A stretch of 64,000 nt of DNA from NCBI GenBank assembly GCA_958295675.1, contig OY282360.1:658026-722025 (forward strand), in the 5' to 3' direction. The position numbers were made by a program, and so were the translations under genes. Shown one piece after another: positions 45,752-62,024 of the stretch (within the stretch, counting starts at the first letter, position 1; each line of letters opens with the position of its first letter). Origin of the DNA: Minisyncoccota bacterium (lineage in GTDB: Bacteria; Patescibacteriota; Minisyncoccia; Phycocordibacterales; JABAAK01). The notes beneath the pieces are model-generated. The model was not told where the DNA came from, did no database searches, and saw only the letters and a list, made by a program, of their open reading frames with translations.

Positions 45752-46468
45752 TCAGCAATACTGCTGTAGATGCGATTTAAAAAATGATAGTGCGTTAACT
45801 AAAGATTCTCTTTTCATTGGCTTAAAAAACTCTCCCCTATGAATCGGTCTATCTACTTTTCTATCTCCTTCTAATAAGGTGATTATATTGAGTGTGTAGT
45901 CAAAGTAAGACATAAGGGTGTGGGTGCTGGTGCTACCAAATTTTACCTCTTTTAAAATCTCTGAATAATCGCCACCAAGCTGACTCTCAAGTTGAAAGAG
46001 CACAATCTCCGCATCAGGAGAAATTTCTTTTACAAATGAGCCATCAATTAAAATTCTCTTTATCATCGCGTTTTCTGTGTATGATTTACATTCAATGGCC
46101 ATTACGAGATTACCTCGCACATAAACAGGAACATCTATGTTAAATTTGTACGAATAATCTTTTATGTTTTTTCGTATGTGTTCTGCTATTTCGTTTTCAA
46201 TAGTATCTAAATAATCTTTTTTAAGCGGGACAGTGACAGATCCCTGCTCGGTGCTCAGATCATCAATATTGCCCACCATATCAAACCATGCTCGCTTCAC
46301 AAGACCTCGTGCAAATGCTTCAACAAAAGAACCCTTAATAGAACGCTCTATACCGCCCGTTGCGCGTTTTGTATCCTGGACCTCGGAACCTATTCTCTTA
46401 ACTAATGAGTTATATGCAGCTAATAAATCATCAATGGTTGGAATTTCCGGTAAATCTTCTATATTCAT
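45752..46468 (-). CDS. Putative Type II restriction endonuclease (PD-(D/E)xK)
   Basis: NIDVPVYVRGNLVMAIECKSY. 4 nt downstream of a methyltransferase gene in the same orientation. Confidence 0.5.
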   Translation of the reverse strand: MNIEDLPEIPTIDDLLAAYNSLVKRIGSEVQDTKRATGGIERSIKGSFVEAFARGLVKRAWFDMVGNIDDLSTEQGSVTVPLKKDYLDTIENEIAEHIRKNIKDYSYKFNIDVPVYVRGNLVMAIECKSYTENAMIKRILIDGSFVKEISPDAEIVLFQLESQLGGDYSEILKEVKFGSTSTHTLMSYFDYTLNIITLLEGDRKVDRPIHRGEFFKPMKRESLVNALSFFKSHLQQYC

Positions 46469-46471
46469 ATA

Positions 46472-47647
46472 TTAAAACAACGAGCTTGCTAATCGTTTCT
46501 CCGCAACATTACAATATTCCGTTGATATATCCACACCGAGATACCTTCTATCAAGCATACGAGCAACGCTGGTTGTTGTACCCACACCATTAAAAACATC
46601 CAATATGATGTCATTTTTGAAACTGAAAAGTTTGAGACATCGCGATACAAGATTTTCAGGAAACATTGCAGGGTGCCCATATTCTTTCATATTCCTTTCA
46701 GGTGCAATTGACCACTTCGCAACAACCCACTTTTTAAACTCTTCAGCCGTTATATCAATATCTTCAGTTTTTCCAGAGTGCTTCAAATCACCTTTACAAA
46801 AAACTTCAATAAACTCCCATGTGTATTTCAGATATGGACTACTCGGACTCTTCCAACTACCCCACGCAGTATACTTGCAGTTATAGTTATTTTTTTCCCA
46901 AAGTATTTCCCCTTTCCACAGCATCCCAATATCCAACAAATGTTTAGAGATAATATGATGTGTCGGTATATAATCTGAAAACAGCGGCTGTACATTAATA
47001 ATCATTCTTCCGCCATATTTTAGGACTCGTTTTGTTTCTTCTAAAATTGCAAATAACTGATTGAAATAATCATCCCACTTTTTATCATCTGCACCATTCT
47101 CATATTCAAGTCCGAAATTATACGGCGGTGAGGTAATCATCACATCAATACAATTATTTGGTAACTTCCTGAGTACATCCAAACTATCCGCACATACTAT
47201 TGCATTCTCATATTCAAACGGCAAGATATTTTCTTCTATGCTTTTTTCTGTGTTTCTAATACTGGAGGTTCTTTTTTCCGATTTTTGTTTTCTGTTCTTT
47301 ACCTTTCTCTCTTTATTAAAATCAACATACACTCTTTTCCCACTCTTGAGCCCGTATGATCCGATACTGTTAACCGCCTCCACAAGATCATCTATAGCAC
47401 TGAGAACCTCTTCCTCTCCGTTGTTCGCTTTTACCTCCAGTGCTCTGCTTTTGAACCGTTCAAAATCAAGATTATTCACAAACAGCTTCACCTCATATGA
47501 TCCCATTGGCTCAAAATAAATATGTCTATTAAATTCATCCAAGAAAGATTTGACAACGCGTTTGCTTTTCTCATCAAATTCTTTGGTTGTCTTCAGAGTA
47601 ACCTCCTTATATTCCATATATATAGTATATATCAGAAAATTACACAA
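46472..47647 (-). CDS. Beta-class DNA methyltransferase with an about 150 aa N-terminal extension
   Basis: VMITSPPYNFG (motif IV) and LDVFNGVGTT (motif I). Confidence 0.8.
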   Translation of the reverse strand: MCNFLIYTIYMEYKEVTLKTTKEFDEKSKRVVKSFLDEFNRHIYFEPMGSYEVKLFVNNLDFERFKSRALEVKANNGEEEVLSAIDDLVEAVNSIGSYGLKSGKRVYVDFNKERKVKNRKQKSEKRTSSIRNTEKSIEENILPFEYENAIVCADSLDVLRKLPNNCIDVMITSPPYNFGLEYENGADDKKWDDYFNQLFAILEETKRVLKYGGRMIINVQPLFSDYIPTHHIISKHLLDIGMLWKGEILWEKNNYNCKYTAWGSWKSPSSPYLKYTWEFIEVFCKGDLKHSGKTEDIDITAEEFKKWVVAKWSIAPERNMKEYGHPAMFPENLVSRCLKLFSFKNDIILDVFNGVGTTTSVARMLDRRYLGVDISTEYCNVAEKRLASSLF

Positions 47648-47812
47648 TATGTGTTACTTTCTCACACCTATTTGCTTTTCCCTGCTATGAAGTGGCTTAC
47701 CATGATCTTTTAAAATTTTGTAAGCAACATCTTTAAAGGAGTTCATATATATAATGGGGCAATATATCACCCTATAGTGTAAAAATCTATGAATGAATTC
47801 CCCTAAATTTCT

Positions 47813-48613
47813 TTATAAGGAAAGTAGAGTTTTTATATAAAGAGAGTCATCAAAATTTTCCTGTTTTATTAAGGCAAAATAACCATTATTAATGCCTGCC
47901 CTTTCAAGAACATCTTCAAATTCTCTACTATCCAATCTGCAAATAACTTCAAATAGGTATGGAAAAATGATTGATACGGCGTTTATTCCAGATATCCTGC
48001 GGTGTATAGGAGAAAATATCCCAGTATTGCCTGATTTCGACATGTCAAATTTTTTGTACATTGAAAAAAGGAGATTAATATTTTTCTCAATATCACCAGA
48101 AGATAATTCGCATATTATTTTTTCCCTATACGGTCCAATGTTAATATGAGAAAACTTTTCTGATAAATCAAGTTTCAATATTAAAAATAATATAAATCTT
48201 CTAATCTTTTCTAAATCAATATCATTAATTATCCCATCTCTTAAATTACTATTAAGAAAGTCGCCAATCCTCATTAGGCGCCCATATTCTTCATCATCAG
48301 TTATAATATTAATATCCCCTTTCCCAATATTTTTTATAAATTCGAGAAAATATTTTTCATCTCCAGAAAATTTATTATCACAGTCAGCACAAAAAGTGTC
48401 TTTCATATATGGAAGATTGTTTGATTGAGTATATTTTGTGCTTCCATCTGCCATTATTATAGTTCCCCGTTTATCCTGAGAGTTCGGGTTGTTTTCATCA
48501 ATACCACAAATATATTTCCTGAATGCTTTCGATAATATATGTGCTTTAATGAGGGGTCTTTCTTTCCTACATAAAAAACAAATGCCAAAATCTCCTCTTC
48601 TATTTTTATTCAT
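47813..48613 (-). CDS. Hypothetical protein with an HNH-like CxxC..AHI motif
   Basis: GICFLCRKERPLIKAHILSKAF. Confidence 0.3.
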   Translation of the reverse strand: MNKNRRGDFGICFLCRKERPLIKAHILSKAFRKYICGIDENNPNSQDKRGTIIMADGSTKYTQSNNLPYMKDTFCADCDNKFSGDEKYFLEFIKNIGKGDINIITDDEEYGRLMRIGDFLNSNLRDGIINDIDLEKIRRFILFLILKLDLSEKFSHINIGPYREKIICELSSGDIEKNINLLFSMYKKFDMSKSGNTGIFSPIHRRISGINAVSIIFPYLFEVICRLDSREFEDVLERAGINNGYFALIKQENFDDSLYIKTLLSL

Positions 48614-48711
48614 ATTAATAGCTGATTATATCACAAACGCCAAATTGTAGTGCTTGAAAAATACCTGAAAATAGAATACAATACCGCAGGTTTCCTGATA
48701 GGGAGAAACGG

Positions 48712-49341
48712 ATGAGGAAGAATAGGAAGAAAAGGTTGGAAGAGTGGGACAAACACACACCCGAAGAAAAATTTGAGATTGTCTTCGGGAGCAATGATGT
48801 GTTCCATGAAAGCTTGCAAGAATGGAAGAAAAACGGCGGAAAAGGGAAGAATGTTCCTGATTTTGCTGATAGAACCACAGCGATTGGAAAACGACGATCA
48901 AGGATATACCAATTTGGCATATTGGTATGGGACAGATGGTCGCTACTGCCGGAAAACAGAATTTTCAACATCCATCTACACCGATGGTGGAGATCTGAAG
49001 AAATACTCGTCAAAGGACTCCATTCGCACAATATGCTTTTCTGCATCGGCATAACACTCAAAGGAAGTGTGTGGGAATTGGTAGACAAACATCCCAAGCA
49101 GAAAATTGCGAAAGTGGGTTCACTGATCGTGGTTGCTAATCCGGATGATGACGAATTAGAAAACGCAAAACTGGTACACAGATACTTCTTCCGGTGGTAT
49201 ACTCAGAAAGTCCGACATTCCGTGCTCATTCCGAAACGGTTTGCAGGAAAAACATGGACACTGTTCATAACAGGACCGGAGATACGGAAGAAGGGAGAAA
49301 GCAACGTGGTCCTCATCAAAGGATTTGACGAGGAGACGTAG
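48712..49341 (+). CDS. Hypothetical protein
   Basis: 209 aa ORF followed by a strong intrinsic terminator. Confidence 0.4.
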   Translation: MRKNRKKRLEEWDKHTPEEKFEIVFGSNDVFHESLQEWKKNGGKGKNVPDFADRTTAIGKRRSRIYQFGILVWDRWSLLPENRIFNIHLHRWWRSEEILVKGLHSHNMLFCIGITLKGSVWELVDKHPKQKIAKVGSLIVVANPDDDELENAKLVHRYFFRWYTQKVRHSVLIPKRFAGKTWTLFITGPEIRKKGESNVVLIKGFDEET

Positions 49342-49484: not shown

Positions 49485-50495
49485 ATGTTTAAAAATATAT
49501 TTGTCATAATAACAATCATCATTATCATTTTCCTTGTTGTATTCTTTGCCAGGAGTCCGCAGGATAGGAGTTTCGTCACATTCGGTACAGGCGGTATCAC
49601 CGGTGTCTACTATCCGACAGGTGGGGCGATCAGCAGTTTAATCAACAAGAAACAGGACACATACAACATCAAGTCGGCAGTCGCGTCCACAGGCGGATCC
49701 GTGTTCAACATCAATGCAGTTCTGGCGGGTAACATAGAATTCGGTATCGCGCAGTCCGACCGGCAGTACGAGGCGTACAACGGACTTGCGGAATGGGAGT
49801 CCGAGGGACCTCAGAAAAACCTGCGATCGGTTTTTGCAATCTACCCCGAAGCAATCACCTTAGTCGCATCCGAAAAGAGCGAGGTCAGCACCGTTTCCGA
49901 CTTGCGTGATAAACGGGTGAACCTCGGCAATGTCGGCTCCGGACAACTACAGAACGCGCTTACAGTGCTGAAAGTATTCGGATTGTCTGAAGATGATGTG
50001 AAAGCGGAGATGGTTAAAGCGGCTGAAGCACCAGGCCTGCTCCAGGATGGGCGCATAGATGCGTTCTTCTACACAGTCGGACATCCGAATGGCAACATCA
50101 AGGAAGCGGCATCCGGTCGCATACCAGTACGCATCATTCCTATTGAAGGTCCCGGCATCAACACACTTATCGTTGAAAACCCGTTCTACAGCACAACAAC
50201 CATTCCCATAACGATGTATCCGAAGAGTGTCAATACGGAGGACATCCCAACATTCGGTGTGGCAGCAACACTGGTAACTTCAAGTGAAACATCGGAAGAC
50301 ATTGTCTACGCGGTCACAAAAGAAGTGTTTGAGAATTTGGATGACTTCAAGGCCTTCCATCCGGCATATGAAACCATAACACCTGAATCCATGCTGGAAG
50401 GACTTTCCGCCCCATTACATAAGGGTGCAATCCGCTACTACAAAGAAGCGGGATTGCTGGAAAGAATAGACGATCGGCTGCTCGTTGAAGCATAA
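49485..50495 (+). CDS. TRAP transporter TAXI-family solute-binding protein
   Basis: N-terminal TM/signal. FVTFGTGGITGVYYPTGGAI. Confidence 0.8.
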   Translation: MFKNIFVIITIIIIIFLVVFFARSPQDRSFVTFGTGGITGVYYPTGGAISSLINKKQDTYNIKSAVASTGGSVFNINAVLAGNIEFGIAQSDRQYEAYNGLAEWESEGPQKNLRSVFAIYPEAITLVASEKSEVSTVSDLRDKRVNLGNVGSGQLQNALTVLKVFGLSEDDVKAEMVKAAEAPGLLQDGRIDAFFYTVGHPNGNIKEAASGRIPVRIIPIEGPGINTLIVENPFYSTTTIPITMYPKSVNTEDIPTFGVAATLVTSSETSEDIVYAVTKEVFENLDDFKAFHPAYETITPESMLEGLSAPLHKGAIRYYKEAGLLERIDDRLLVEA

Positions 50496-50520
50496 TCGGA
50501 TATATCGCCGATAATCGGCG

Positions 50521-52596
50521 ATGGATATGCAACACAACATACGAAACACATTCAGAATACTGAAAGATCGGCTGAAACCGGAAGTGCATGAGGAGATAGA
50601 GGAAGAGATTGAAGGTATTAGTATAAAGCGCACACCGCTGCTGATTATAATCGTTTCAGTTGCATGGGCGTTGTTCCAGCTCGCGCTTCCCCAACTACTC
50701 CTATTGGACACATTAGTTATCCGTGCGGTGCATCTCGCATTCGCACTGACATTAGCGTTTCTCACCGCAAATTTGTGGAAACAATCAAAACCGACGACGC
50801 TCAAAAAACCGTTCCGCAAAATCATCCGCTATGCAGCGATCAGTGTATGTATCGCGATAATAATCACCGCGGCGTGCTATATCATCATTGACTGGCAGGG
50901 TATCGCGGAGCGTGCGGGCATATTACTGACACGCGACATGCTGATGGGTGTGCTGTTAATCGCCATTCTGTTGGAAGCGACACGGAGAAAAATAGGCATG
51001 GCACTGGTGCTTACCGCCGCATTTTTTATATTCTACGCGCTCTTCGCTTCACATTTCCCCGGCATACTCGCGTTTAGAGATGTCTCAATAGTTGAGTTTT
51101 TCAATCAAATAACACTCTCATTTGAGGGTATCTACGGCATACCGCTCGGCATATCCGCATCAACAATCTTCCTGTTCGTGCTAATGGGCGCACTTTTGGA
51201 GCGCGCCGGTGCGGCAAGATACTTCATCAATCTCGCGCTCGCGCTGGTCGGCAGATCAAGGGGCGGACCGGCAAAAGCGGCAGTCGCATCAAGTGCGATG
51301 ATCGGCACCATATCCGGCTCAAGCATAGCGAATGTCGCGACATCCGGCGCATTCACCATCCCGCTAATGAAAAAGACGGGATTTCCGGCGAAAAAAGCGG
51401 CTGCAATAGAAGTTGCGGCAAGTACAGACGGACAGCTTATGCCGCCGATTATGGGCGCAGCGGCGTTCATTATGGCGGAATATCTCAATGTCCCCTATGT
51501 GGAAATCATTAAAGCAGCCCTTATCCCCGCGATTATCTCTCTCGCCTCCCTGTTCTTTGTGGTGCACTTTGAGGCATCAAAACTCGGTTTGCAAAAACTC
51601 GCAAAAGAACATATACCCCGCTTCACGAAAGTGCTATGGGGTGGCGCGCACTACCTTGCGGTCATAGGTCTTCTGCTCTACGAACTATTGGTGATGCGCC
51701 ATTCACCGGAGATGTCGGTGTATAAAGCGGTGCTGCTGTTGCTAGTAATTATCTTTGTCCAGGAACTATGGCGCGGATATAAAAAAGGATCAATCAATAA
51801 GGGTTTACGAGGTGCAGGCAGAACTATTGTTGAGGGATGTATTCTCGGATCAAAAAATATGGTGATGGTCGCACTCGCGACCGCGATCGCAGGCATTATT
51901 ATCGGTGTTATTAATATGGGATTAGGCAGCAGCATCACGCAACTGGTCAGCGCGGTCTCGTTGGGAAACATATTCCTGTTGCTGCTATTCACTGCGATTG
52001 CCTGTATTATCCTCGGCATGGGACTACCGACCACGGCAACATATATTGTAATGGCATCGCTCACCGCGCCTATAATTCTTGAATTTGGAGCGGAAATCGG
52101 TTTCATTGTGCCACTCATCGCCGCACACCTCTTCTGCTTCTACTTCGGCATCCTCGCGGATGACACTCCGCCGGTCGGTGTCGCCGCATACACCGCGGCA
52201 ACCATAGCAAAATCAGATCCTATAAAAACAGGTTTGCAATCATTCTTCTATGACATCAGAGATGCCATCATTCCTTTCATGTTCATTCTGAACACCGATC
52301 TCATTCTGTACAATATTGAAAACTTTTGGCTCGGTCTCCTCATCGCCATAATGGGCATTCTCGGCGCTCTCTCTTTCACCAGTGCATTGCAAGGTTGGCT
52401 TCTGATAAAAAGCAGGTGGTATGAAAACATCCTGTGCATCGGCGCGGCACTCCTCTTCCTTAATCCGGCATTTATCGGATTTTTCATCAATATTGCGGTA
52501 CCGTACTATGGCTACATAGCCGGATTGGCGATCTTGATGGGAGTCGTATACATACAAAAAACAAGAAAAAGTAAACAAGTTACGCTGGATGTATAA
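50521..52596 (+). CDS. TRAP transporter fused 4TM/12TM permease (TAXI-associated)
   Basis: 691 aa polytopic membrane protein immediately downstream of the TAXI binding protein. Confidence 0.8.
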   Translation: MDMQHNIRNTFRILKDRLKPEVHEEIEEEIEGISIKRTPLLIIIVSVAWALFQLALPQLLLLDTLVIRAVHLAFALTLAFLTANLWKQSKPTTLKKPFRKIIRYAAISVCIAIIITAACYIIIDWQGIAERAGILLTRDMLMGVLLIAILLEATRRKIGMALVLTAAFFIFYALFASHFPGILAFRDVSIVEFFNQITLSFEGIYGIPLGISASTIFLFVLMGALLERAGAARYFINLALALVGRSRGGPAKAAVASSAMIGTISGSSIANVATSGAFTIPLMKKTGFPAKKAAAIEVAASTDGQLMPPIMGAAAFIMAEYLNVPYVEIIKAALIPAIISLASLFFVVHFEASKLGLQKLAKEHIPRFTKVLWGGAHYLAVIGLLLYELLVMRHSPEMSVYKAVLLLLVIIFVQELWRGYKKGSINKGLRGAGRTIVEGCILGSKNMVMVALATAIAGIIIGVINMGLGSSITQLVSAVSLGNIFLLLLFTAIACIILGMGLPTTATYIVMASLTAPIILEFGAEIGFIVPLIAAHLFCFYFGILADDTPPVGVAAYTAATIAKSDPIKTGLQSFFYDIRDAIIPFMFILNTDLILYNIENFWLGLLIAIMGILGALSFTSALQGWLLIKSRWYENILCIGAALLFLNPAFIGFFINIAVPYYGYIAGLAILMGVVYIQKTRKSKQVTLDV

Positions 52597-53051: not shown

Positions 53052-53123
53052 CTCCCCGTAGTTTAACGGATAGAACACAGGCTTCCGGAGCCTGCGATGC
53101 GGGTTCAATTCCTGCCGGGGAGG
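53052..53123 (+). tRNA. tRNA-Arg (anticodon CCG)
   Basis: CTCCCCGTAGTTTAACGGATAGAACACAGGCTTCCGGAGCCTGCGATGCGGGTTCAATTCCTGCCGGGGAGG. Confidence 0.8.
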
Positions 53124-53180
53124 CTTAATGGAGGTGGAAATGACACCTTGCCGTAAGTTTTCCTCGTATACTATGTATGT

Positions 53181-54479
53181 ATGGATACGCAGTATGTAAA
53201 AATCCCGTTTCTGGGTACGGTCTGCGCTAAAACTTCACTAGGTACAGCGATATGTGGTACTCCGTCTACAATAACTGTTTCAAAAGATATCTTACAACCA
53301 AGGAAAAAATACTATTCACTAACAATAGGCGGCGATAGTATGCGACACACCTACAAAGATGGCGAGACCATTCTTGTAGAGAATACCAAAAATGCACAAC
53401 AGGATGATGTGATTATCGCCAGGACACAGGAGGGAGACACCATAAAGAGAATAAAAACTCTCACAGAAAAAAGAATTGTTCTTATAGCCGATAATAAAGA
53501 AACACTGTCATTTCCAAAAAATAAGATGGACATTCTCGGCGTTGTCATTGGCAAGATAGATGTAACAGAACAGGAAAGTGTCAACCTTGTCTCAAAAAAC
53601 ATACTGACTGAAAAATTGCACATAAAAAACAAAATTATCTGCGGTGACACGCTGATAGAAATGAGAAAAATTCCAACCGCAAGTGTTGATGTCATCATTG
53701 CCGATCCACCGTATAACATAGGAAAAGATTTCGGAAACAATAAGGACAAAAAAGATATGGAGGAATATATCGGATGGTGCAAGGTGTGGATTGATGAAGG
53801 ATTGCGGTGTCTTAAACCGGAAGGAACAATGTTTATTTATGGTTTTAGTGAAATACTAGCACACCTTGCAACAAACACACGGGCAAACAAAAGGTGGTTG
53901 GTATGGCACTACACCAACAAAAATGTTGCATCACTAAACTTTTGGCAGCGAAGCCACGAAGGGGTGCTGTGCGTCTGGAAAGAGAAAAAACCAAAATTTT
54001 TCAGAGACGCAATCAGAGAACCGTACTCCGAAACATTCTTGAAAAATTCCGCCGGCAAGGTAAGAAAATCAAAATCCTGCAGATTCAGCAATGGAGAGAG
54101 TACCACGATTTACAAGGCACATTCAAAGGGTGCTCTACCGCGAGATGTCATTAAAACCCCGGCACTTGCCGGAGGAGCAGGAAAATCGGAAAGACATTTC
54201 CTCTGCAAAACCTGTAACAAAGTATATTTGTCAAAAAATCTTGACGAACACAGAACACACACAACTCTGAAGCACCCAACACAAAAACCAAGAGTACTTA
54301 CTGAAAAATTGCTTCATTCCTGCCTCAATAAAAAAGGATTGGTGCTCATTCCTTTTGCTGGATCAGGATCGGAGTGCCTTGTGGCAAAACAACTCGGACA
54401 CGACTTTGTTGGTATAGAAATAAACGAAGAATATATACAATTAGCAAACGGTCTATTCAATAAGAAAATGCCTAAATAG
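53181..54479 (+). CDS. Fusion protein: N-terminal S24 LexA-like peptidase domain plus beta-class DNA methyltransferase (with a CxxC insert)
   Basis: IGGDSMRHTYKDGETILVE..DDVIIARTQEGDTIKRIK (S24 Ser/Lys dyad). VIIADPPYNIG (motif IV). IPFAGSGSE (motif I). CKTCNK. Confidence 0.75.
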   Translation: MDTQYVKIPFLGTVCAKTSLGTAICGTPSTITVSKDILQPRKKYYSLTIGGDSMRHTYKDGETILVENTKNAQQDDVIIARTQEGDTIKRIKTLTEKRIVLIADNKETLSFPKNKMDILGVVIGKIDVTEQESVNLVSKNILTEKLHIKNKIICGDTLIEMRKIPTASVDVIIADPPYNIGKDFGNNKDKKDMEEYIGWCKVWIDEGLRCLKPEGTMFIYGFSEILAHLATNTRANKRWLVWHYTNKNVASLNFWQRSHEGVLCVWKEKKPKFFRDAIREPYSETFLKNSAGKVRKSKSCRFSNGESTTIYKAHSKGALPRDVIKTPALAGGAGKSERHFLCKTCNKVYLSKNLDEHRTHTTLKHPTQKPRVLTEKLLHSCLNKKGLVLIPFAGSGSECLVAKQLGHDFVGIEINEEYIQLANGLFNKKMPK

Positions 54480-55308
54480 CATCAATCTCCTCTTTTTTCT
54501 CACGAAACACTTTCGGAGTAAACACCACAAACCCGTTACCCAACCTCTTCAGATTTTTATTTTCTATAAAATCAAGGTACGGCTTTCTATACTCGCCGTT
54601 CAGTTTCTTCGGTTTTTCAAACACTTCCTGATTCGGCACAGCGTATTCAATATCTATCGACTCACCCTGCAACTGTTGTTTACTTGTCCTCGGTCGGCGC
54701 ACCTCCCTACTCTGTGTGCGTTTTTTAACCTGATAGTTAAGCATGCGTCCTTTATAATGAACTTGTATATCTGCATTCTTTCTATCAAGCTCGGTAGACA
54801 TATTCACCGTACCGGCACCAAACACCTGTTCGGCAACATACCCGGCGTGTATCTGTGTAATGATGCTCGCCCAAGTCCGGTAAATTCTCGCAGGCAGTCC
54901 TCTATAAAAACAATCAGGACATATTGTTGTCTTATCCCGAAACTCCTCTATATCCTGTTCGTATTTTTTACTGTATCGTTTGTAAAATGTATCAAAGTTA
55001 ACATACTCACGCTTATCCCAGTAAATCTCGTACATTAAATCAAGTGCCTGTATATTTCTCGGCAAGTCCATCTCCACGATTTTAATCGGCTGGTACTTTT
55101 TCCTGTACCCAGCCAAATCCACACCCTCAAGGAATGAGTCAAAAGATTGTGTGTCGTTTATTGTATACATACTACTAAAAATATATCTCACACCTTGAGT
55201 TGCGGGTTGCATAGATATAGATAAAGTATAGCAAATAAACAAAATTATGTCTTTGTGTCGAATATCTTGATTTACAGCAAGATGTCTGCTAAAATACAAA
55301 TACAACAA
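54472..55308 (-). CDS. Hypothetical protein convergent with and overlapping the methyltransferase; candidate cognate restriction endonuclease
   Basis: 278 aa. The true start is probably an internal Met (MQPATQ.. or MYTIND..). Contains ICPDCFYRG. No clear nuclease motif. Confidence 0.35.
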   Translation of the reverse strand: MLYLYFSRHLAVNQDIRHKDIILFICYTLSISMQPATQGVRYIFSSMYTINDTQSFDSFLEGVDLAGYRKKYQPIKIVEMDLPRNIQALDLMYEIYWDKREYVNFDTFYKRYSKKYEQDIEEFRDKTTICPDCFYRGLPARIYRTWASIITQIHAGYVAEQVFGAGTVNMSTELDRKNADIQVHYKGRMLNYQVKKRTQSREVRRPRTSKQQLQGESIDIEYAVPNQEVFEKPKKLNGEYRKPYLDFIENKNLKRLGNGFVVFTPKVFREKKEEIDAI

Positions 55309-55534
55309 GTGATAAAATACTTATATATCAGATTCATACCCATACACAGTAATAAACAACAAGCTTGAGCCTGTTTTCCAAAAAATCCAACAGGCTGCAA
55401 AACCAGAAAGATTTAATGCTGCCTTTCTGCAAAAACTTGGTTTCGCCAGCTCAAATTATCGAGCAATCGTACCCCTGTTTAAAAAACTTGGTTTCATTAA
55501 TGAGGATGGGTCCCCCACCGAATATTATGATAGG

Positions 55535-55939
55535 TTGCGCGATGCAACAGACTGGCAATATGTGCTTGGGGAAAGAATAAAAGAATTGTACAAGGATCTC
55601 TACAATATAGACACTGAAATCCATCAAAAGAATCAAGATGAAATAAAGGGGGCTGTTAACCGTGTTACTGGAAAAGATAAAAAAAGTGTTGACAGATATG
55701 TCTTAACTTTCTCATCATTAAGCAATATGGCAAAGTTTGGGGTCTCACCGAAAACAACAAAGGTACCAGAAAGTGCAGCAAACACCAAAGAAAAACAAAA
55801 AAAGGACGAACACTCTGTCAAAGGAAGTTTAGATGGAATCAGTTTAAATCAAAACATCCAAATACAACTACCAATGACCAAAGACACTGCGGTTTACAAT
55901 GCTATCTTCCAGAGCATACGAGAAAATCTGTTGGATTGA
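55535..55939 (+). CDS. Hypothetical protein. The frame is open from 55316 without an in-frame ATG, so the start is uncertain.
   Basis: The conserved-looking upstream peptide ..AAFLQKLGFASSNYRAIVPLFKKLGFINEDGSPTEYYDRL continues in frame into the TTG-start ORF. Confidence 0.35.
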   Translation: MRDATDWQYVLGERIKELYKDLYNIDTEIHQKNQDEIKGAVNRVTGKDKKSVDRYVLTFSSLSNMAKFGVSPKTTKVPESAANTKEKQKKDEHSVKGSLDGISLNQNIQIQLPMTKDTAVYNAIFQSIRENLLD

Positions 55940-55940
55940 T

Positions 55941-56531
55941 ATGAAAAAAACAAACAAAAAGTATATGGATGATCTCAAAAGAATGACTTTCAACGGAATT
56001 CTGGCAATAGAAAGTCTCAATGCTTTATCAAAGAATGGAATTGATATAAGAGTGCTTGAAAAAAAGGAAGAAAGGGAAGAGCAGGAAAATGATTTTAGCC
56101 CAATTTTACTAAATAAAGCAAGAAGTATGAGCAGAGTTTACGAAATGTTTTTCTGTATGGAGAACGCTGCCAGATCACTGATAGAAGAGCGTCTTTCGGA
56201 ACGAATGAACGAAAATTGGTGGGAAACCTGTGTTTCAGAAAACATAAAAAAATCTGTCGAAACCTTAAGAAAGAAAGAAGAAAAAAATAAATACCACACC
56301 CAAAGAAATTTACATCCAATTGGGTACACAATGTTTGGAGATCTTGAAAAAATTATCATCAATAATTGGGAAAATTTTTCCGATATCTTTCCCGAACAAT
56401 ATTGGATATCGTCTCGTTTTAATGATTTAGAATTATCAAGAAATATCATCATGCACACAGGGACACTTCCAGAAACAGAAATAGGAAGAATTGAGGGAAT
56501 AGTTAGAGATTGGATAAACCAAACTGGGTAG
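55941..56531 (+). CDS. HEPN-like (R-N-x3-H) protein
   Basis: ELSRNIIMHTG motif at the C-terminal end of an alpha-helical protein, in a defense-island context. Confidence 0.45.
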   Translation: MKKTNKKYMDDLKRMTFNGILAIESLNALSKNGIDIRVLEKKEEREEQENDFSPILLNKARSMSRVYEMFFCMENAARSLIEERLSERMNENWWETCVSENIKKSVETLRKKEEKNKYHTQRNLHPIGYTMFGDLEKIIINNWENFSDIFPEQYWISSRFNDLELSRNIIMHTGTLPETEIGRIEGIVRDWINQTG

Positions 56532-56865
56532 TTTTATACAAAGCAATTTGTAAGTATTTCCAGTTTTGAATCTTTGCGACCGAAAAGTGCAAAAAAGATA
56601 AAACAGGGAAAACAGAGCGAAACATTCCATATCTCGCGTAAGAGTGAAAAATAGCAGAGTGTTTATGTATACAACTGCTTCGCTTTTTTGAATAGGTTCG
56701 AAACTGCGGGGTGAAGTGACGGTACCCAACCAAACGAACACCCTGTTACTATAGACCGTCCTGCCAGTACCTCCATAACTCCTACAGTACCATGACGAGG
56801 GCACGGGATTGGACGGCGGATTGAAAGGAAAAAGAAGTAAATATATCTACAATCTATACTACCTA

Positions 56866-56965
56866 CTACCGCAAACCCTTCAGTTTCGCCCGCAGTATCG
56901 CAACTTCAAGTGCTTTGTCGGAAGATGCTATCTTTTCCTCAAGCGCGGCAATAAGATGGCGGCGA
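56866..56965. repeat. About 100 bp direct repeat (copy A) encoding the C-terminal RHLIxALEEKIxSSDKxxEVAILRAKLKxLR module
   Basis: About 85% nucleotide identity with 58203-58302. Confidence 0.7.
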
Positions 56966-57333
56966 ACCGCTTCCTTAGCCCGGGCGTATAAAAAATCACC
57001 GGCTAAGAGCGCTTCTTTAATACTCCACTTTTTATGCGCTGTGGTCCGGCCCCGGCGCAACGATGCCTCGTCAATGATATCATCATGTATTAATGACGCC
57101 GCATGAATATATTCCACCGCCAACGCCGCTTGGATGCCAGCTTCCCCGCGCTGTCCCATCAAGCGATAAAAAGTTAAAAGTAACAGAGGCCGAATGTATT
57201 TCCCTTCGCCGCGTAGAATATAGGTCATTCGTTCTTGCAGATCTGGATGACAATCCACCGCCACCAATCGGCACTTAAACTCAGCCATTGTCTCCGCCAC
57301 GACCGCGGTAGGGAAACCGCTTGGCGGTTTCAC
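56866..57333 (-). pseudogene. Truncated polyprenyl diphosphate synthase (N-terminal half with the first DDxxD) fused in frame to a 31 aa repeat-encoded tail
   Basis: ..LAVEYIHAASLIHDDIIDEASLRRGRTTAHKKWSIKEALLAGDFLYARA then RRHLIAALEEKIASSDKALEVAILRAKLKGLR*. The second aspartate-rich motif is absent. Confidence 0.6.
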
Positions 57334-58115
57334 AGAATATCGTTCATCGTGTAGAGACCCGCTTTGCTCTGGTCCGCCAGCCAGGCCGCGGCGCGTAACG
57401 CGCCTCGAGCAAACAGAACACGGGAATTGGCTTGATGACGAATTTCCAACACCTCCCCCTCGCCGATGAAGCGCACGCTATGTTCGCCGACTAGATCCCC
57501 GCCACGCGTTACTTGAAAGCCGATACTACCCGCTGTTCGTTCGCCTTCTTGGCAGCGATCATAAACAGCCAGTTCGTCTAAGGGGCAATCACGCGTCGCG
57601 GCTAGTAAACGACCAAGCATCAATGCTGTGCCGGAAGGGGCGTCTTTTTTATGCTTATGATGCGCCTCGGCAATTTCAATATCATATTCTTCGCCCAGAT
57701 GTCGCGCTGCTTGCTGCGCCAACTCGCCGCAAACATAAATACCCAGGCTCATATTCGCCGCCCAGAAAATTGGAATCTGGTTGGCTGTTTTCTTAATCAG
57801 ATCGATCTGCTGAGTTGAATGTCCCGTCGTCCCGATGACTAGACCTATGCCTTGCGCGGCGCATCCGTGTAAAACATCTATAATTGCATCCGGATGCGAA
57901 AAATCAATGAGCACCTTACATCCGGTTGGATCAATTGCGCTTATGCAGATAAGAGGATGATCGCCGCCACTGAGCGGCGCAATATCCTTGTTAGCCATGG
58001 GACTGGTTGGTTCCACGATCGCAACAGTTGCTCGCATAGCCGATGCGGCATGCGCTAAACGCAGGATCGTTAAACCCATTTTACCATCCGCGCCGCAAAC
58101 TCCTATCCTTAGCAT
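57330..58115 (-). CDS. dapB: 4-hydroxy-tetrahydrodipicolinate reductase
   Basis: MLRIGVCGADGKMG (NAD-binding). EAHHKHKKDAPSGTA. Noticeably GC-rich. Confidence 0.85.
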   Translation of the reverse strand: MLRIGVCGADGKMGLTILRLAHAASAMRATVAIVEPTSPMANKDIAPLSGGDHPLICISAIDPTGCKVLIDFSHPDAIIDVLHGCAAQGIGLVIGTTGHSTQQIDLIKKTANQIPIFWAANMSLGIYVCGELAQQAARHLGEEYDIEIAEAHHKHKKDAPSGTALMLGRLLAATRDCPLDELAVYDRCQEGERTAGSIGFQVTRGGDLVGEHSVRFIGEGEVLEIRHQANSRVLFARGALRAAAWLADQSKAGLYTMNDIL

Positions 58116-58202
58116 AATTGTAGTATACTGTAAAACATTTTATGACTCATTATAACCATGTTTCATAGAAAAAACCAAAAATATCCGTAATTTGTACTGC
58201 TA

Positions 58203-58302
58203 TTATCGCAAATCCTTCAGTTTCGCCCGCAATATCGCAACTTCAAACGGCTTATCCGAAGATTTAATTTTTTCCTCAAGCGCGCTGATAAGGTGCCGAC
58301 GC
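58203..58302. repeat. About 100 bp direct repeat (copy B), the 3' end of the helicase gene
   Basis: See copy A. Confidence 0.7.
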
Positions 58303-61300
58303 GCCGTTTTCTTGCGTTCCGGATTCCCTGCGCTCTCGAATTCATTCTCTAAATCATCAATACTCATAGCGACAAAATAAGAATCGTCCGGAACACCACG
58401 CTCTCGGCGTTCAATCTCCTCCTCTGAATAGAAAATCTCATAATCATCAACCCACACTTCATCCGCTATACCGTCGTCCCAGACCAAACTATCATCGCCC
58501 AAAATCATATTCTCTCTGTCATCCGCGAATAAAACTGCACCACTTCTGTCAACAAGAATTTGGGCGATGATATATTCATAACCAGAACCAGATTTTTTGG
58601 CGGAAACATTAGAAACAAGAACCTGATTTTTGTCTGAAAAATTAATGCGCTTAAGCACATTTGATGGAACGGACACACCGCCGCGCCGTACACTTTCAAC
58701 ATCTGAAGGGATACCGAGTTCAGATTCTTTCAATAGGTCACCGTACATAACCTTGTTGATTAATGCATCCGAATCCCTGCACGCCGCTTCTTTTTCTTCA
58801 ATAGCATCAGCAATATCAGATGCGCGCTCGATGCTTGTCTCCGCCGCCTTCAATAGAGGCACATTAAGTTTACGCTCAGCATCTTGCACACTACCCCAAA
58901 GCATCTCCACCTGCTCCGGACTGACAACATTAAGGCGCGGAGGTCGGACTCGCCTATCAAGTGCAAAATCTCTCAATTTTTTAACTTTCTTTCTGATTGA
59001 ATCGCGAAGTCGTTCACTCTCTTCTTGTTGTGCCACATTGTCACGAAGTTCTTTGATGCGCTGAAGAGTTTCGGCATTTTCTTTTTTCGCTTCATTTTCT
59101 TCACGGTAATAGCGAATACTATATTGGATACCGCCCCATCCTACAACACGGGCCGGATGTGCGGTTAACGGATCACCGGTAACACCATCATTGCCGTACA
59201 CAATAGGATTGGGCAGTGACAGGTCTGATGTCAGAGGATCAAACCTGTGTTGCTGCCGTTCATATCTATCCTGATTATTTAATTTCCATTTTTCCCATAC
59301 AACAGTATTCAAACGATTCCGTACATCCTGTTTGAGAGATTCAATATCATTAAATTTGTTCTCAGAAAACGCATCCTGCAGTTGAACATACACCTTACGA
59401 CCAGACGGCAAAGAGGGGATATCACCAAGCTTCAAAATATCTTTATTCCGCATCTCTATCTTTGCATAGTAACCGTCATGAGGATCAGTGATGTACTGCA
59501 CACGATACATCTTTCCACCGACAGTAATCGTATTAGGATTCTCTTTATATATCGCGCGCTGTGTATCCCGTGATATGAAATCTTCAAGAGAGAAAGATAG
59601 ACTAATACCATGACGCTTCAAATCACGCATGGAAGACGCATTACCTGCGTGTGTGAGTCCCAAGGAATATAGATCACGCAAACAATCTTTGGAAAATGAT
59701 CCTGAAAACATCTGGTTCTCCTGAATATCACTGCCATTGCGGGCACGCAGCACATTGTACCGATCCATGACCTGCTGGTTGTTCCTGGTAAAATCAGCAA
59801 AATTCGGATGCTGTACAAGCCATTCACTGAATGCACGCACGGCATCCGGATTGGAATCTACTTTTTCAACACTAGGCGGCAGATCATCTTGAAACTGTAC
59901 ATCTTTTATACGCTGAACGGTATGCCTGTACACACCATCTTTTTGTGGATCATATTCCAAAGAATCGTGAGATGTTTCAAGCAATTGGGGAGCGATTTCC
60001 GAAATCCATTCCTGCTTCACACGCTGAACAGGCGAAAGCCATGTCTTTGGTCCGCGTTTCGTGTCAGTGGTGAATATCTCACCGGCAACACACAAATCAG
60101 GCACGGTCCGGTAAACCGAAGACGACGGATGAATAAACATGTACATTCCGTGAGAAAAACCGGCGGGATCAGGGCGCACAAAACCATAACTAAAGCGACT
60201 ATTTTTTCGCACAAAGTTTGAAACGAGACCGGCAAAAACGGATTTGCCAACGGCTTCCGGATCATCGGAGTGCGCTTCATAGTTCCGTCCGTTTCTGAGA
60301 ACGCGGAGCATCTGCATTCTGGTCTGACGCACACGGTCAAGCGCCTGAGCGTTGAGAAAGTTTTCTCTTGCCCACTGATACCGACCGCCATTCAGATTTT
60401 TGTACTCCTTCCAAATGTTCATAAATGTTACAAAATCAGAAGAATCATCCTGAAATCGAAGATGTGCTCGATCCGCTTCATCCTCCTTTCCTCTGGGACG
60501 CACAAACAATTTCCGGCGTTCATCAAAAAAAGCAGCGATGGTTACAATATCACCGACACAGCCGCGATCAAGACCCTCAACAACCATTCGGGCAATTCTC
60601 GGCTCAAGCGGCAGGTCTGCCATCGTCTCACCGACAGAAGTAATGGCTTCCTGTTCGTCAAGAGCGCCTAACATTTTCAATTCCTGAACAGCGGCATCAA
60701 TGTTCTCCAGATCCGGTTTGTCAATAAAATCAAAGGAACGCACATTATCAATGCCGGATTTTTTCATAATCAGGACAAGATTGGCGAGGTTCGTCCGCTG
60801 AATTTCCGGCTTTGAATACGCCGGTCGTTCTTCAAAGCTTTCTCTGGTGTAGAGTGCATGGTACACACCGTCTGTCACGCGACCGGCGCGCCCGCGCCGC
60901 TGCCTCAAACCGGCCTGCGAATGCTCTTTTGTTTCCAATTTTCTGATGTGCATCTTCGGATCAAAATCAGTTTCTTTGATGAGTCCGGAATCAACCACAT
61001 GCCGTATACCGTCAACAGTCACTCCTGCTTCGGCTATGTTTGTGGAGACGATGATACGCCGTGTGTCACCTCGCTTGGTTATCACCCGCTTCTGCTCTTC
61101 CTTGGAAACAGACGCGTGCAGCTCCAATATCTCACACCGATTGGTAATGTCTGAGTCACTCAGACACTGAATGGTGCCTTTTATTTCCTCACGACCGGGC
61201 ATAAAAACAAGTATGTCGCCCGGCTCTCCGGACGTAACAATCTCTTCACATTTTTCAGCAGCAGCAGAAACATAGTCGTTGGCAATTGTCTCCGCATAAT

Positions 61301-62024
61301 GCTCTTCAACAGGAAACATCTTGCCTTCTATCTCCTTCATTGCCTCAGTACCGAAGTATTCGGCAAATTTCTCCTTCTCAATAGTTGCCGAGGAAATCAC
61401 AACTTTCAATGGCGGGTGTCCCTGTTCTTTCCGCAGCTTCTGCGCCTGTTTAAGCAGACCCATAACAAGATCAATATTCAAACTCCGCTCATGCGCTTCA
61501 TCAACCATAACGGCATCATAGTTTTTCAGAAGCGGATCATTGACAATTTTCCGCAGCATAATACCGTCAGTCATAAAATTCAAATTGGTATTGCGGTCAG
61601 TACGGTCGTCAAAACGAACCTGGTATCCGACTTCCCGATTCATAGAATAACCATTCAGGTCAGCAACATATTCAGGGACGGAAACGGCGATATTTACCCG
61701 AGGCACGGTGACGGCAATGCGCGAATCAGGACCGAGTGTTTTAAAAAGAAAATCCGGACCGCGTGTGGTTTTCCCGGCACCGGTGTGCGCCACTAACACT
61801 GACGATTCATGATTGGAAAAAAATTCCATCACTTCATCTCTGCGCCTGTCCATCGGCGTAACCTGATCGGGAGAAAGTTCCTGTTTCCTGTGAGACCGCT
61901 CTGGTGTTTGCTCCCTCTCGGAAGCCGGTTTGGAAAACTGCTCTGATGTTTGTTCCTTCTTGGGAAATGGTTTGGTTATTTCATCCAACCTTCCGAATAC
62001 TAATTTTCTTCTCCCACTTTTCAT
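58203..62024 (-). CDS. hrpA: HrpA-like DEAH-box ATP-dependent helicase with a long C-terminal extension
   Basis: AHTGAGKTT, MVDEAHERS, SATIEKEKF, QRRGRAGR. Confidence 0.8.
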   Translation of the reverse strand: MKSGRRKLVFGRLDEITKPFPKKEQTSEQFSKPASEREQTPERSHRKQELSPDQVTPMDRRRDEVMEFFSNHESSVLVAHTGAGKTTRGPDFLFKTLGPDSRIAVTVPRVNIAVSVPEYVADLNGYSMNREVGYQVRFDDRTDRNTNLNFMTDGIMLRKIVNDPLLKNYDAVMVDEAHERSLNIDLVMGLLKQAQKLRKEQGHPPLKVVISSATIEKEKFAEYFGTEAMKEIEGKMFPVEEHYAETIANDYVSAAAEKCEEIVTSGEPGDILVFMPGREEIKGTIQCLSDSDITNRCEILELHASVSKEEQKRVITKRGDTRRIIVSTNIAEAGVTVDGIRHVVDSGLIKETDFDPKMHIRKLETKEHSQAGLRQRRGRAGRVTDGVYHALYTRESFEERPAYSKPEIQRTNLANLVLIMKKSGIDNVRSFDFIDKPDLENIDAAVQELKMLGALDEQEAITSVGETMADLPLEPRIARMVVEGLDRGCVGDIVTIAAFFDERRKLFVRPRGKEDEADRAHLRFQDDSSDFVTFMNIWKEYKNLNGGRYQWARENFLNAQALDRVRQTRMQMLRVLRNGRNYEAHSDDPEAVGKSVFAGLVSNFVRKNSRFSYGFVRPDPAGFSHGMYMFIHPSSSVYRTVPDLCVAGEIFTTDTKRGPKTWLSPVQRVKQEWISEIAPQLLETSHDSLEYDPQKDGVYRHTVQRIKDVQFQDDLPPSVEKVDSNPDAVRAFSEWLVQHPNFADFTRNNQQVMDRYNVLRARNGSDIQENQMFSGSFSKDCLRDLYSLGLTHAGNASSMRDLKRHGISLSFSLEDFISRDTQRAIYKENPNTITVGGKMYRVQYITDPHDGYYAKIEMRNKDILKLGDIPSLPSGRKVYVQLQDAFSENKFNDIESLKQDVRNRLNTVVWEKWKLNNQDRYERQQHRFDPLTSDLSLPNPIVYGNDGVTGDPLTAHPARVVGWGGIQYSIRYYREENEAKKENAETLQRIKELRDNVAQQEESERLRDSIRKKVKKLRDFALDRRVRPPRLNVVSPEQVEMLWGSVQDAERKLNVPLLKAAETSIERASDIADAIEEKEAACRDSDALINKVMYGDLLKESELGIPSDVESVRRGGVSVPSNVLKRINFSDKNQVLVSNVSAKKSGSGYEYIIAQILVDRSGAVLFADDRENMILGDDSLVWDDGIADEVWVDDYEIFYSEEEIERRERGVPDDSYFVAMSIDDLENEFESAGNPERKKTARRHLISALEEKIKSSDKPFEVAILRAKLKDLR

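What the first reader, a model, noticed from the sequence alone, without database searches (positions are those of the whole stretch)
56866..58302. An approximately 100 bp direct repeat brackets a GC-rich dapB plus truncated polyprenyl-synthase insertion at the helicase 3' end
The nucleotides at 56866-56965 and 58203-58302 are about 85% identical. Both encode the C-terminal tail RHLIxALEEKIxSSDKxxEVAILRAKLKxLR*. Copy B is the genuine end of the 1273 aa helicase. Copy A terminates a polyprenyl synthase that is cut off after its first DDxxD motif. Between the copies lie dapB and the synthase fragment, both visibly GC-rich relative to their neighbours. This is the footprint of an integrative element that inserted into the 3' end of the helicase gene and duplicated it (attL/attR-like). 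It left a chimeric ORF, and no integrase is present.
Basis: seen in the sequence. Interest (0 to 1): 0.6.

Follow-up and report, generated by a model that had tools for sequence, protein, structure and literature searches.

The report
Gammaproteobacterial DNA chunk in a Patescibacteria genome
A 1.2-kb piece of a gammaproteobacterial chromosome (an intact dapB gene plus the first third of the next gene) has recently landed just after a helicase gene in a tiny Patescibacteria genome; it sits between two old, diverged copies of the helicase's 3' end, so this is a clean case of cross-phylum gene transfer and not a mobile element with att sites.

Summary
A weaker match continues about 40 nt past both stop codons. 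Copy B ends a 1273-aa HrpA-like helicase typical of Patescibacteria. Copy A ends a chimeric ORF.

The main new result concerns window 56977-58155. It is 96.3% identical over 1179 nt to a 2.17-Mb contig, where dapB is followed by a full-length 343-aa polyprenyl synthase. The nearest named relative of that contig is a Gammaproteobacteria MAG. The insert is therefore a recently transferred chromosomal fragment cut inside a gene. One junction is blunt and the other lies in a T-run. No integrase occurs anywhere in the window.

The repeats did not arise with this insertion. They differ at 21% of sites, mostly synonymous (pN/pS 0.26), whereas the dead synthase fragment differs from the donor relative by 3%.

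In two relatives the helicase stop is followed within 4-50 nt by a convergent tRNA-Arg. Here 5.1 kb lies between them: a low-GC restriction/defence island, tail A and the gammaproteobacterial fragment. This looks like an insertion hotspot.

My best reading is illegitimate capture of foreign DNA, plus a second helicase 3' end that came from a related lineage or from an older duplication. Interest is moderate. The transfer might point to a host.

The parts
58203..62024 (-). HrpA-like DEAH-box helicase, 1273 aa, native Patescibacteria gene
   Evidence: Matches TIGR01967 HrpA over residues 23-698, plus Pfam DEAD, Helicase_C, HA2 and OB_NTP_bind. The named homologues are from Patescibacteria, Magasanikbacteria or Parcubacteria. 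The upstream synteny (YgjP-like gene, then a ~200-aa ORF, then the helicase) is shared with L001.
58203..58313 (-). Repeat unit B: last 36 codons plus stop of the helicase (genuine C-terminal tail)
   Evidence: The tail is conserved in helicase homologues P0002, P0004, P0005, P0006, P0257 and L085.
58156..58202 (-). 3' untranslated stretch after the helicase stop (UTR-B). About 30-40 nt resemble the stretch after copy A. It ends in a T-run where homology to the donor begins (junction 1).
56977..58155 (-). Horizontally acquired fragment of gammaproteobacterial origin, 1179 nt, 52% GC
   Evidence: 96.3% nt identity without gaps to L003 9961-11139 (2.17-Mb contig). 75% to L004 and 67% to L005 (Gammaproteobacteria MAG OZ242372.1).
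57330..58115 (-). dapB (4-hydroxy-tetrahydrodipicolinate reductase), intact, 261 aa
   Evidence: TIGR00036 at 230 bits and full length. 95% aa identity to P0121. The substitutions on the window branch are 8 synonymous and 6 non-synonymous, the same as on the L003 branch.
56866..57333 (-). Chimeric ORF, 155 aa: codons 1-119 of the donor polyprenyl synthase fused in frame to 36 codons of helicase tail A. It keeps the donor's 4-nt overlap with the dapB stop.
   Evidence: The full-length gene is 343 aa in L003 and 340 aa in L004.
56866..56976 (-). Repeat unit A: displaced second copy of the helicase 3' end (36 codons plus stop), 52% GC against 46% in unit B
   Evidence: Homology to the donor stops at 56977 and homology to unit B starts at 56976.
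56820..56865 (-). Stretch after the stop of copy A (UTR-A), weakly similar to UTR-B
56532..56819 (.). Unassigned spacer (40% GC). No Rfam family, Pfam domain or tRNA remnant was detected.
53181..56531 (.). Low-GC (38%) restriction/defence island: S24-peptidase-fused N6/N4 methyltransferase (53181-54479 +), TaqI-like endonuclease (54472-55308 -), a DUF5343 gene apparently frameshifted (55365-55939 +), and a Swt1-like HEPN protein (55899-56531 +)
53052..53124 (+). tRNA-Arg(CCG), convergent with the helicase. Its counterpart abuts the helicase stop in relatives L001 and L085, which marks the ancestral neighbour.

Best explanation
The window belongs to a small Patescibacteria (CPR) genome. In the ancestral layout the HrpA-like helicase gene ran into a convergent tRNA-Arg gene only a few tens of bases away. 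That short interval has become an insertion hotspot.

One of the pieces now lodged there is a 1179-nt fragment of a gammaproteobacterial chromosome. It carries the dapB promoter region, an intact dapB, and the first 119 codons of the polyprenyl synthase that follows dapB in the donor lineage. It entered very recently by illegitimate (non-homologous) end joining, most plausibly from DNA taken up from a neighbouring or host cell.

The fragment has no mobility functions. It was simply cut inside the synthase gene. Its distal end happens to be joined in frame to a second, partial copy of the helicase 3' end, and that creates the 155-aa chimeric ORF, which cannot be a working prenyl synthase.

The two helicase tails are not a target-site duplication made by this event. 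They diverged long before it, mostly at synonymous sites. My preferred reading (inferred, not shown) is that tail A comes from a related Patescibacteria lineage. It would have been brought in by recombination anchored on one side by homology (the conserved tRNA-Arg or the helicase gene) and closed on the other side by an illegitimate join. This could be homology-facilitated illegitimate recombination or a single crossover with a small circular molecule.

Shown: the foreign origin and donor clade, the boundaries, the truncation, the helicase origin of both tails, the age mismatch, and the absence of an integrase. Inferred: the uptake route, the order of events, and where tail A came from.
For: Foreign origin:
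- 96.3% identity over 1179 gapless nt to L003. There, and in L004 and L005, dapB is followed by a full-length polyprenyl synthase with the same 4-nt overlap, inside conserved housekeeping synteny.
- The closest named genome is a Gammaproteobacteria MAG, and no Patescibacteria appear among the 80 dapB loci returned.

Recency:
- 44 differences in total. Polarised with L004, the window branch of dapB (8 synonymous, 6 non-synonymous) is no longer than the L003 branch (7 and 5).
- The truncated synthase fragment has 11 nt differences, of which only 3 change an amino acid. Its divergence was therefore accumulated under selection in the donor lineage, not as a pseudogene.

Junctions:
- Donor homology ends at 56977 and repeat homology starts at 56976, with no shared bases.
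- The other junction falls in a TTTTTC run.

Tails:
- Both are helicase-derived.
- Age mismatch: 23 differences in 108 coding nt against 3.1% in the synthase fragment, P = 3.5e-7 to 9e-15.
- Selection signature: 13 synonymous and 10 non-synonymous differences, pN/pS 0.26, P = 0.003 against random mutation.
- At most variable sites the residues of tail A also occur in other, intact helicase tails.
- Tail A is GC-richer than tail B (52% against 46%), the opposite of what AT-biased decay would give.

Hotspot:
- tRNA-Arg lies 50 nt (L001) and 4 nt (L085) after the helicase stop in relatives, and 5078 nt away here.

Other points:
- No integrase in the window. RecA, RecG, RuvX and SSB are present.
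- Single-crossover and HFIR products with 109-950-bp duplications or blunt junctions are documented experimentally (PMC3240628).
- HGT into Patescibacteria from other phyla has been reported (PMC12455944).
Against: - No close relative of this Patescibacterium exists in any collection searched; the nearest helicase is 54% identical. So neither the uninserted state nor a lineage carrying tail A on a full-length helicase could be shown.
- The selection signature on the tails is compatible, at P about 0.1 by my hand calculation, with a model in which copy A decayed neutrally after an old local duplication while copy B stayed constrained. That model also predicts the observed ~79% coding and ~66% UTR identities quite well.
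- The lineage-import scenario needs more separate events than the old-duplication scenario.
- Raw reads were not available, so a mis-assembly cannot be formally excluded.
- Competence genes were not looked for, because the window covers only 64 kb of a 724.5-kb contig.
Confidence: 0.55

Rival explanations
1. An older local duplication followed by a later replacement. An earlier event at this hotspot had already left a second, partial or complete, copy of the helicase 3' region downstream of the real gene. The gammaproteobacterial fragment then replaced whatever lay between UTR-B and the present start of copy A, through two illegitimate joins in a single recent event.
For: This needs the fewest events. 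The identities fit a single age of about 0.17 substitutions per site: ~79% in the coding part (one copy free, one constrained) and ~66% after the stop (both free), as computed. The locus has clearly been hit repeatedly, as the defence island and the displaced tRNA-Arg show. It also explains why the repeats are far older than the insert.
Against: pN/pS of 0.26 is lower than the roughly 0.5 expected if copy A were free, though this is only marginal. Copy A has stayed open and carries residues seen in functional tails. Copy A is GC-richer than copy B, the opposite of what neutral AT-biased decay would give. No tail duplicate exists in L001 or L002.
Confidence: 0.3
2. A true integrative element. 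A site-specific recombinase inserted an element carrying its own copy of the helicase 3' end (attP) into the helicase 3' end (attB). The integrase and most of the element were later lost.
For: The topology is right: unit, then insert, then unit, with the gene end restored by one copy. Identical runs of 18, 15 and 14 nt inside the units could serve as a crossover core. Diverged flanking copies are expected when attP carries a foreign version of the gene end.
Against: There is no integrase or recombinase in 64 kb. The whole interior is a contiguous, colinear slice of a gammaproteobacterial chromosome at 96% identity, reaching from one repeat unit to the other and ending in mid-gene. This leaves no room for element backbone. 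The tail motif was not found in viral contigs or JGI metagenome contigs. Relatives show no such element at this site.
Confidence: 0.07
3. An assembly or library artefact. The contig joins reads from two Patescibacteria strains and a gammaproteobacterium, so the structure does not exist in any cell.
For: The source is a metagenome-assembled 724.5-kb contig. The donor-like lineage and helicase relatives co-occur in at least one assembly, ERZ25070167. Diverged tandem copies can arise from strain haplotypes placed in series.
Against: The foreign piece is internal, with Patescibacteria sequence on both sides. The junctions share 0 nt and about 7 low-complexity nt, which gives an assembler nothing to overlap. 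The in-frame join, the retained promoter region and the gapless 1179-nt colinearity look like one physical molecule.
Confidence: 0.08

Closest known systems
Homology-facilitated illegitimate recombination (HFIR) and double illegitimate recombination during natural transformation (Acinetobacter baylyi, Streptococcus pneumoniae, Pseudomonas stutzeri; summarised in PMC3240628)
   Same: About 1 kb of foreign DNA with no mobility genes is integrated. The junctions have 0-10 bp of microhomology. The cargo is cut at an arbitrary point. A conserved neighbour (tRNA-Arg or the helicase) is available as a homology anchor. RecA is present.
   Different: HFIR normally gives an insertion coupled to a deletion, not flanking direct repeats. 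Here a repeat results only if the imported DNA itself carried a helicase 3' end. The anchor crossover cannot be seen, and competence of this organism was not tested.
Campbell-type single-crossover integration of a circular molecule carrying a short homologous segment
   Same: It produces exactly this layout: homologous segment, insert, homologous segment. The repeat spacing equals the circle size (1337 bp). Duplications of 109-950 bp were obtained this way in E. coli (PMC3240628).
   Different: It would need a 1.3-kb circle made of gammaproteobacterial DNA plus a helicase end only 79% identical. The longest identical run is 18 nt, which is poor substrate for RecA. No such circle is known.
Integrative elements and prophages that insert into the 3' end of a gene (typically tRNA or tmRNA, sometimes protein-coding) and carry a replacement 3' end (attL/attR)
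   Same: A direct repeat of a gene's 3' end brackets foreign DNA. The gene stays intact. The location is next to a tRNA gene.
   Different: There is no integrase, no element backbone and no partial tRNA copy. The cargo is a truncated slice of chromosome. The repeats are long and 21% diverged, not a short identical core.
Inter-phylum horizontal gene transfer into Patescibacteria (for example Gios et al. 2025, PMC12455944)
   Same: A streamlined CPR genome acquires a metabolic gene from an unrelated co-occurring bacterium, beside genomic islands that carry restriction-modification genes.
   Different: In this case the donor clade, both breakpoints and the recency (96% nt identity to a sequenced relative) are resolved to the base. 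The transferred unit is visibly a random fragment and not a selected gene.

Membership tests
Integrase-mediated integrative element (attL/attR) | A tyrosine or serine recombinase gene within or beside the element | tested here: not met
   Pfam scans of about 50 ORFs across the 64-kb window found no Phage_integrase, Resolvase or rve hits.
Integrase-mediated integrative element (attL/attR) | An identical core sequence shared by the two flanking att sites | tested here: inconclusive
   The longest identical runs are 18, 15 and 14 nt within units that are 79% identical. This would be compatible with a core, but it is not specific evidence for one.
Integrase-mediated integrative element (attL/attR) | Element backbone, or a recurrent element found at the same site in other genomes | tested here: not met
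   The interior is wholly colinear with a gammaproteobacterial chromosome. Relatives L001, L002 and L085 have no insert or tail duplicate. The tail pattern is absent from viral and JGI contigs.
Transposon or IS insertion with target-site duplication | A short identical TSD, terminal inverted repeats and a transposase | tested here: not met
   The repeat is about 150 nt and 21% diverged. No terminal inverted repeats appear at 56977 or 58155. There is no transposase.
Duplication created by this insertion event (any mechanism) | The flanking copies are no more diverged than neutral sites of the insert | tested here: not met
   23 differences in 108 nt for the repeats against 11 in 353 nt for the dead synthase fragment. 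P = 3.5e-7 if both copies were neutral, and 9e-15 if only one was.
Diversity-generating retroelement (template/variable repeat at a gene's 3' end) | A reverse transcriptase nearby, and mismatches confined to adenines of one copy | tested here: not met
   There is no RT domain in the window. The mismatches involve all four bases: G 9, C 8, T 4, A 3 in copy A, and A 9, G 6, T 5, C 4 in copy B.
Homology-facilitated illegitimate recombination product | An illegitimate junction with 0-10 bp of microhomology at one end of the foreign DNA | tested here: met
   The 56977|56976 junction has no shared bases. The 58156-58175 junction lies in a TTTTTC run of about 7 nt.
Homology-facilitated illegitimate recombination product | A homologous crossover at the other end (anchor), traceable by comparison with donor and recipient genomes | not testable with these tools
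   No genome closer than 54% helicase identity is in the collections.
Horizontally transferred gene (xenolog) from Gammaproteobacteria | Near-identity to, and native synteny in, a donor clade that is unrelated to the recipient | tested here: met
   96.3% nt identity to L003. The dapB plus synthase synteny is conserved across L003, L004 and L005 at 96, 75 and 67% identity. L005 is a Gammaproteobacteria MAG, while the homologues of the flanking helicase are from Patescibacteria.
Functional polyprenyl diphosphate synthase | Both aspartate-rich motifs and the full ~250-residue fold | tested here: not met
   Only Pfam positions 3-102 of 251 are present and only the first DDxxD is kept. All NCBIfam scores are far below their cut-offs.

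The most novel reading that the evidence does not exclude
The gammaproteobacterium (a ~2.2-Mb-genome lineage known only from MAGs) is the physical host or prey of this Patescibacterium. On this reading the fragment is host DNA taken up through the epibiont's competence machinery and fixed at a recombination hotspot between the helicase gene and tRNA-Arg. Base-resolved 'host DNA scars' of this kind could then be used to assign hosts to uncultured Patescibacteria. The intact, promoter-bearing dapB might also be expressed and supply a diaminopimelate or lysine step.
Probability: 0.25. Interest if true: 0.6.

Novelty: new member of a known kind. Interest (0 to 1): 0.4.

Why it matters
Hosts of most Patescibacteria are unknown. 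A transfer this recent, with the donor clade and both breakpoints resolved, is a concrete and testable lead to a physical partner. It also shows what raw, unselected foreign-DNA capture looks like in a streamlined genome: a random chromosomal slice, a dead chimeric ORF, and a hotspot next to a tRNA. Beyond that it is an ordinary horizontal transfer event, not a new kind of mobile element. The practical lesson is that direct repeats bracketing foreign DNA need not be att sites or target-site duplications. Comparing the age of the repeats with the age of the insert separates the cases.

Tried and rejected
- A fresh target-site duplication is rejected by the age mismatch.
- A DGR template/variable repeat is rejected: there is no reverse transcriptase and the mismatches are not adenine-specific.
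- A tRNA-type att site for the neighbouring island: there is no partial tRNA-Arg copy anywhere in 53125-58400. A GGTTCGAA look-alike at 56696 is not significant (P = 0.28).
- An RNA gene in the 56400-57000 spacer: no Rfam hit even at E <= 1. The terminator scan gave nothing above the shuffled expectation.
- The tail as a widespread C-terminal motif: only helicase-family hits among 1.84 billion representatives.
- Other copies of the repeat in the window: none.
- A search for close relatives or the uninserted allele found nothing useful:
  - The genome-contig scan with the helicase found nothing.
  - A degenerate tail pattern was absent from viral contigs and metagenome contigs.
  - Exact-protein look-ups of the window's dapB, helicase, chimera and HEPN protein are not on record, so the sample of origin could not be identified.
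  - The listing of cluster members returned no organism names.
- The word-indexed search with the chimeric ORF missed the donor synthase. It was found only through the genomic context of the dapB homologue.
- GC content as evidence of foreignness is weak: 52% is within the window's normal range.
Full report
**1. Observation**

The direct repeat is real. The repeat finder reports 56863-56976 and 58200-58313 (114 nt, 79% identical, spacing 1337). Random 100-mers of the region average 25% and never exceed 49%. A 31-nt core occurs only at these two places in 64 kb.

Both copies are read on the minus strand and encode RRHLI(A/S)ALEEKI(A/K)SSDK(AL/PF)EVAILRAKLK(G/D)LR followed by a stop. Similarity continues about 30-40 nt past both stop codons at about 65-70%. 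The repeat is therefore duplicated DNA and not a convergent peptide.

- Copy B ends a 1273-aa HrpA-like DEAH helicase.
- Copy A ends a 155-aa ORF whose first 119 residues are the N-terminal third of a polyprenyl synthase with only the first DDxxD.
- dapB (57330-58115) is intact.

**2. Whose genome is this**

The window carries LeuRS, IleRS, FtsK, RecA, EF-P, SSB, CTP synthase, RecG, FtsH, tmRNA and ribosomal proteins, interspersed with several low-GC restriction-modification islands. The helicase is identical to a protein from a 724.5-kb contig. Its homologues that carry names are from Patescibacteria, Magasanikbacteria or Parcubacteria, and the nearest is only 54% identical. The recipient is a Patescibacteria (CPR) genome with no close sequenced relative.

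**3. What lies between the repeats**

The dapB protein has a 95% identical homologue on a 2.17-Mb contig. In that contig (L003), and in a 75%-identical relative (L004), dapB is followed by a full-length polyprenyl synthase of 343 or 340 aa, with the same 4-nt overlap as in the window. The pair sits in conserved housekeeping synteny: His biosynthesis, TatABC, OTCase, then dapB and the synthase, then RibF, MurJ, Lnt, YbeY and PhoH.

At the DNA level, window 56977-58155 matches L003 9961-11139 without gaps at 96.3% over 1179 nt. The nearest species representative with a name is a Gammaproteobacteria MAG with a 2.18-Mb chromosome (OZ242372.1, 62% aa identity). It shows the same gene pair. No Patescibacteria appear among the 80 dapB loci returned.

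The segment is therefore a slice of a gammaproteobacterial chromosome. It starts about 40 nt upstream of dapB and ends in codon 119 of the next gene.

**4. How recent**

There are 44 differences from L003. Polarised with L004, the window branch of dapB has 8 synonymous and 6 non-synonymous changes, and the L003 branch has 7 and 5. There is no excess or relaxation on the Patescibacteria side. The truncated synthase fragment cannot be functional, yet only 3 of its 11 nucleotide differences change an amino acid. Its divergence was therefore accumulated under selection in the donor lineage. The transfer is very recent.

**5. Junctions**

Donor homology stops at 56977 (…CCCGGGCT) and homology to repeat unit B starts at 56976 (AAGGAAGCGG…), with no shared bases. 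At the other end, donor homology is perfect from 58155 and probably begins a little earlier, inside a TTTTTC run that is also present after the helicase stop. These are illegitimate joins and not recombinase sites. No integrase, resolvase or transposase domain was found in any of about 50 ORFs of the window.

**6. The repeats are helicase ends, and they are old**

The tail is a conserved C-terminus of this helicase family (P0002, P0004, P0005, P0006, P0257 and the split gene in L085). In a filter-free scan of 1.84 billion representative proteins, the last 54 residues hit only a helicase C-terminal fragment and the chimera itself. Tail A is therefore a displaced helicase 3' end.

- The coding parts differ at 23 of 108 nt: 13 synonymous and 10 non-synonymous differences, pN/pS 0.26, P = 0.003 against randomly placed mutations.
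- If the two copies had been identical when the gammaproteobacterial fragment arrived, the dead synthase fragment should have collected 38-60 changes from decay alone. It has 11 in total (P = 3.5e-7 to 9e-15).
- The repeats therefore predate the insertion or come from different lineages. They are not a target-site duplication of this event.

**7. The locus is a hotspot**

In the two relatives with long contigs, the helicase stop is followed by a convergent tRNA-Arg gene after 50 nt (L001) or 4 nt (L085). In the window the homologous tRNA-Arg (53052-53124, 85-87% identical) is 5078 nt from the helicase stop. The interval holds:

- a 38%-GC defence island (methyltransferase, TaqI-like endonuclease, DUF5343, Swt1-type HEPN);
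- a 334-nt unassigned spacer;
- tail A;
- the gammaproteobacterial fragment.

No partial tRNA copy marks the island's edge.

**8. Mechanism**

The core inference is capture of a random piece of foreign chromosomal DNA by illegitimate joining, in a genome that has RecA, RecG, RuvX and SSB.

For the second helicase end I see two serious options.

(a) It came from a related Patescibacteria lineage. The route would be recombination anchored by homology on one side (tRNA-Arg or the helicase) and closed illegitimately on the other, or a single crossover with a small circle. Both product types are documented, including 109-950-bp flanking duplications and blunt junctions (PMC3240628).

(b) It is the relic of an older local duplication, and the new fragment replaced what lay between the copies.

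Option (a) is favoured by three things: the low pN/pS; the residues of tail A that recur in intact helicase tails; and the higher GC of tail A, 52% against 46%, which is opposite to AT-biased decay. Option (b) needs fewer events and by itself reproduces the ~79% coding and ~66% post-stop identities. By my hand calculation the selection signal rejects it only at about P = 0.1.

**9. Comparison and novelty**

The case works like illegitimate or homology-facilitated integration of transforming DNA. It adds to the reported inter-phylum HGT into Patescibacteria (PMC12455944). It fails the defining tests for an integrative element, a transposon insertion and a DGR. It is a new, unusually well-resolved instance of a known kind of event.

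Its main value is as a lead to a possible gammaproteobacterial partner of an uncultured Patescibacterium. It is also a caution that repeats bracketing foreign DNA are not automatically att sites.

**10. Limits**

- No close relative of the recipient was available.
- The raw reads and the sample identity could not be retrieved.
- Only 64 kb of the recipient and 21 kb of the donor relative could be compared.

Noticed in passing
window 19983-23522 (-): The isoleucyl-tRNA synthetase-like ORF (1179 aa) has a histidine-phosphatase domain (His_Phos_1, residues 514-662) inserted between two halves of the class I synthetase core. This is an unusual domain insertion.
   Followed up: no
window 41364-41437 (-): A tRNA-Ile with a TAT (UAU) anticodon. 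This is an uncommon way of reading AUA in bacteria and may relate to presence or absence of TilS in this lineage.
   Followed up: no
window 488-550 and 878-940: A second direct repeat, 63 nt and 95% identical, spaced 390 nt. Each copy contains a hairpin plus T-run (ACACCGCATAACGCGGGTTTTTTT) just downstream of the LeuRS gene. It may be a duplicated terminator module.
   Followed up: no
window 53181-54479 (+): A DNA methyltransferase fused to an N-terminal LexA-like S24 peptidase domain. It is paired with a TaqI-like endonuclease (54472-55308), then an apparently frameshifted DUF5343 gene and a Swt1-type HEPN protein. All of this lies in a 38%-GC island directly after two tRNA-Arg genes.
   Followed up: partly
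window 33000-41100 and 46000-49000 and 25959-27371: Three further low-GC (33-39%) blocks carry restriction/defence-type genes: a ResIII/SNF2 helicase, a MerR-fused methyltransferase, a DnaA-HTH protein, SocA/Panacea, other N6/N4 methyltransferases, and an endonuclease VII/His-Me nuclease. A large share of this small genome's window is island DNA.
   Followed up: no
window 49485-52596 (+): A TAXI-type TRAP transporter (an NMT1_3 solute-binding protein plus a fused DctM membrane protein, 48-55% GC) lies next to the tRNA-Arg pair. This is unexpected for a Patescibacterium and may be another acquired block. In relatives the synteny on this side of the tRNA is different, with an LRR protein and ribosomal protein L19.
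   Followed up: no
window 10770-10955 (+): A highly acidic Asp/Glu-rich tandem-like stretch, with 9-15-nt periodicity, lies in the N-terminal part of the FtsK-like ORF.
   Followed up: no
L085 6001-9928: In a relative, the orthologous helicase is split into 1133-aa and 173-aa ORFs. The conserved tail sits on the short ORF. This is either a frameshift or a sequencing error in a 5x-coverage contig.
   Followed up: partly
L001, L004, L085 (assembly ERZ25070167): Relatives of the recipient helicase (54% and 51% aa identity) and a relative of the donor dapB locus (75% nt identity) all come from the same metagenome assembly. This is a weak hint that the two lineages share habitats.
   Followed up: partly
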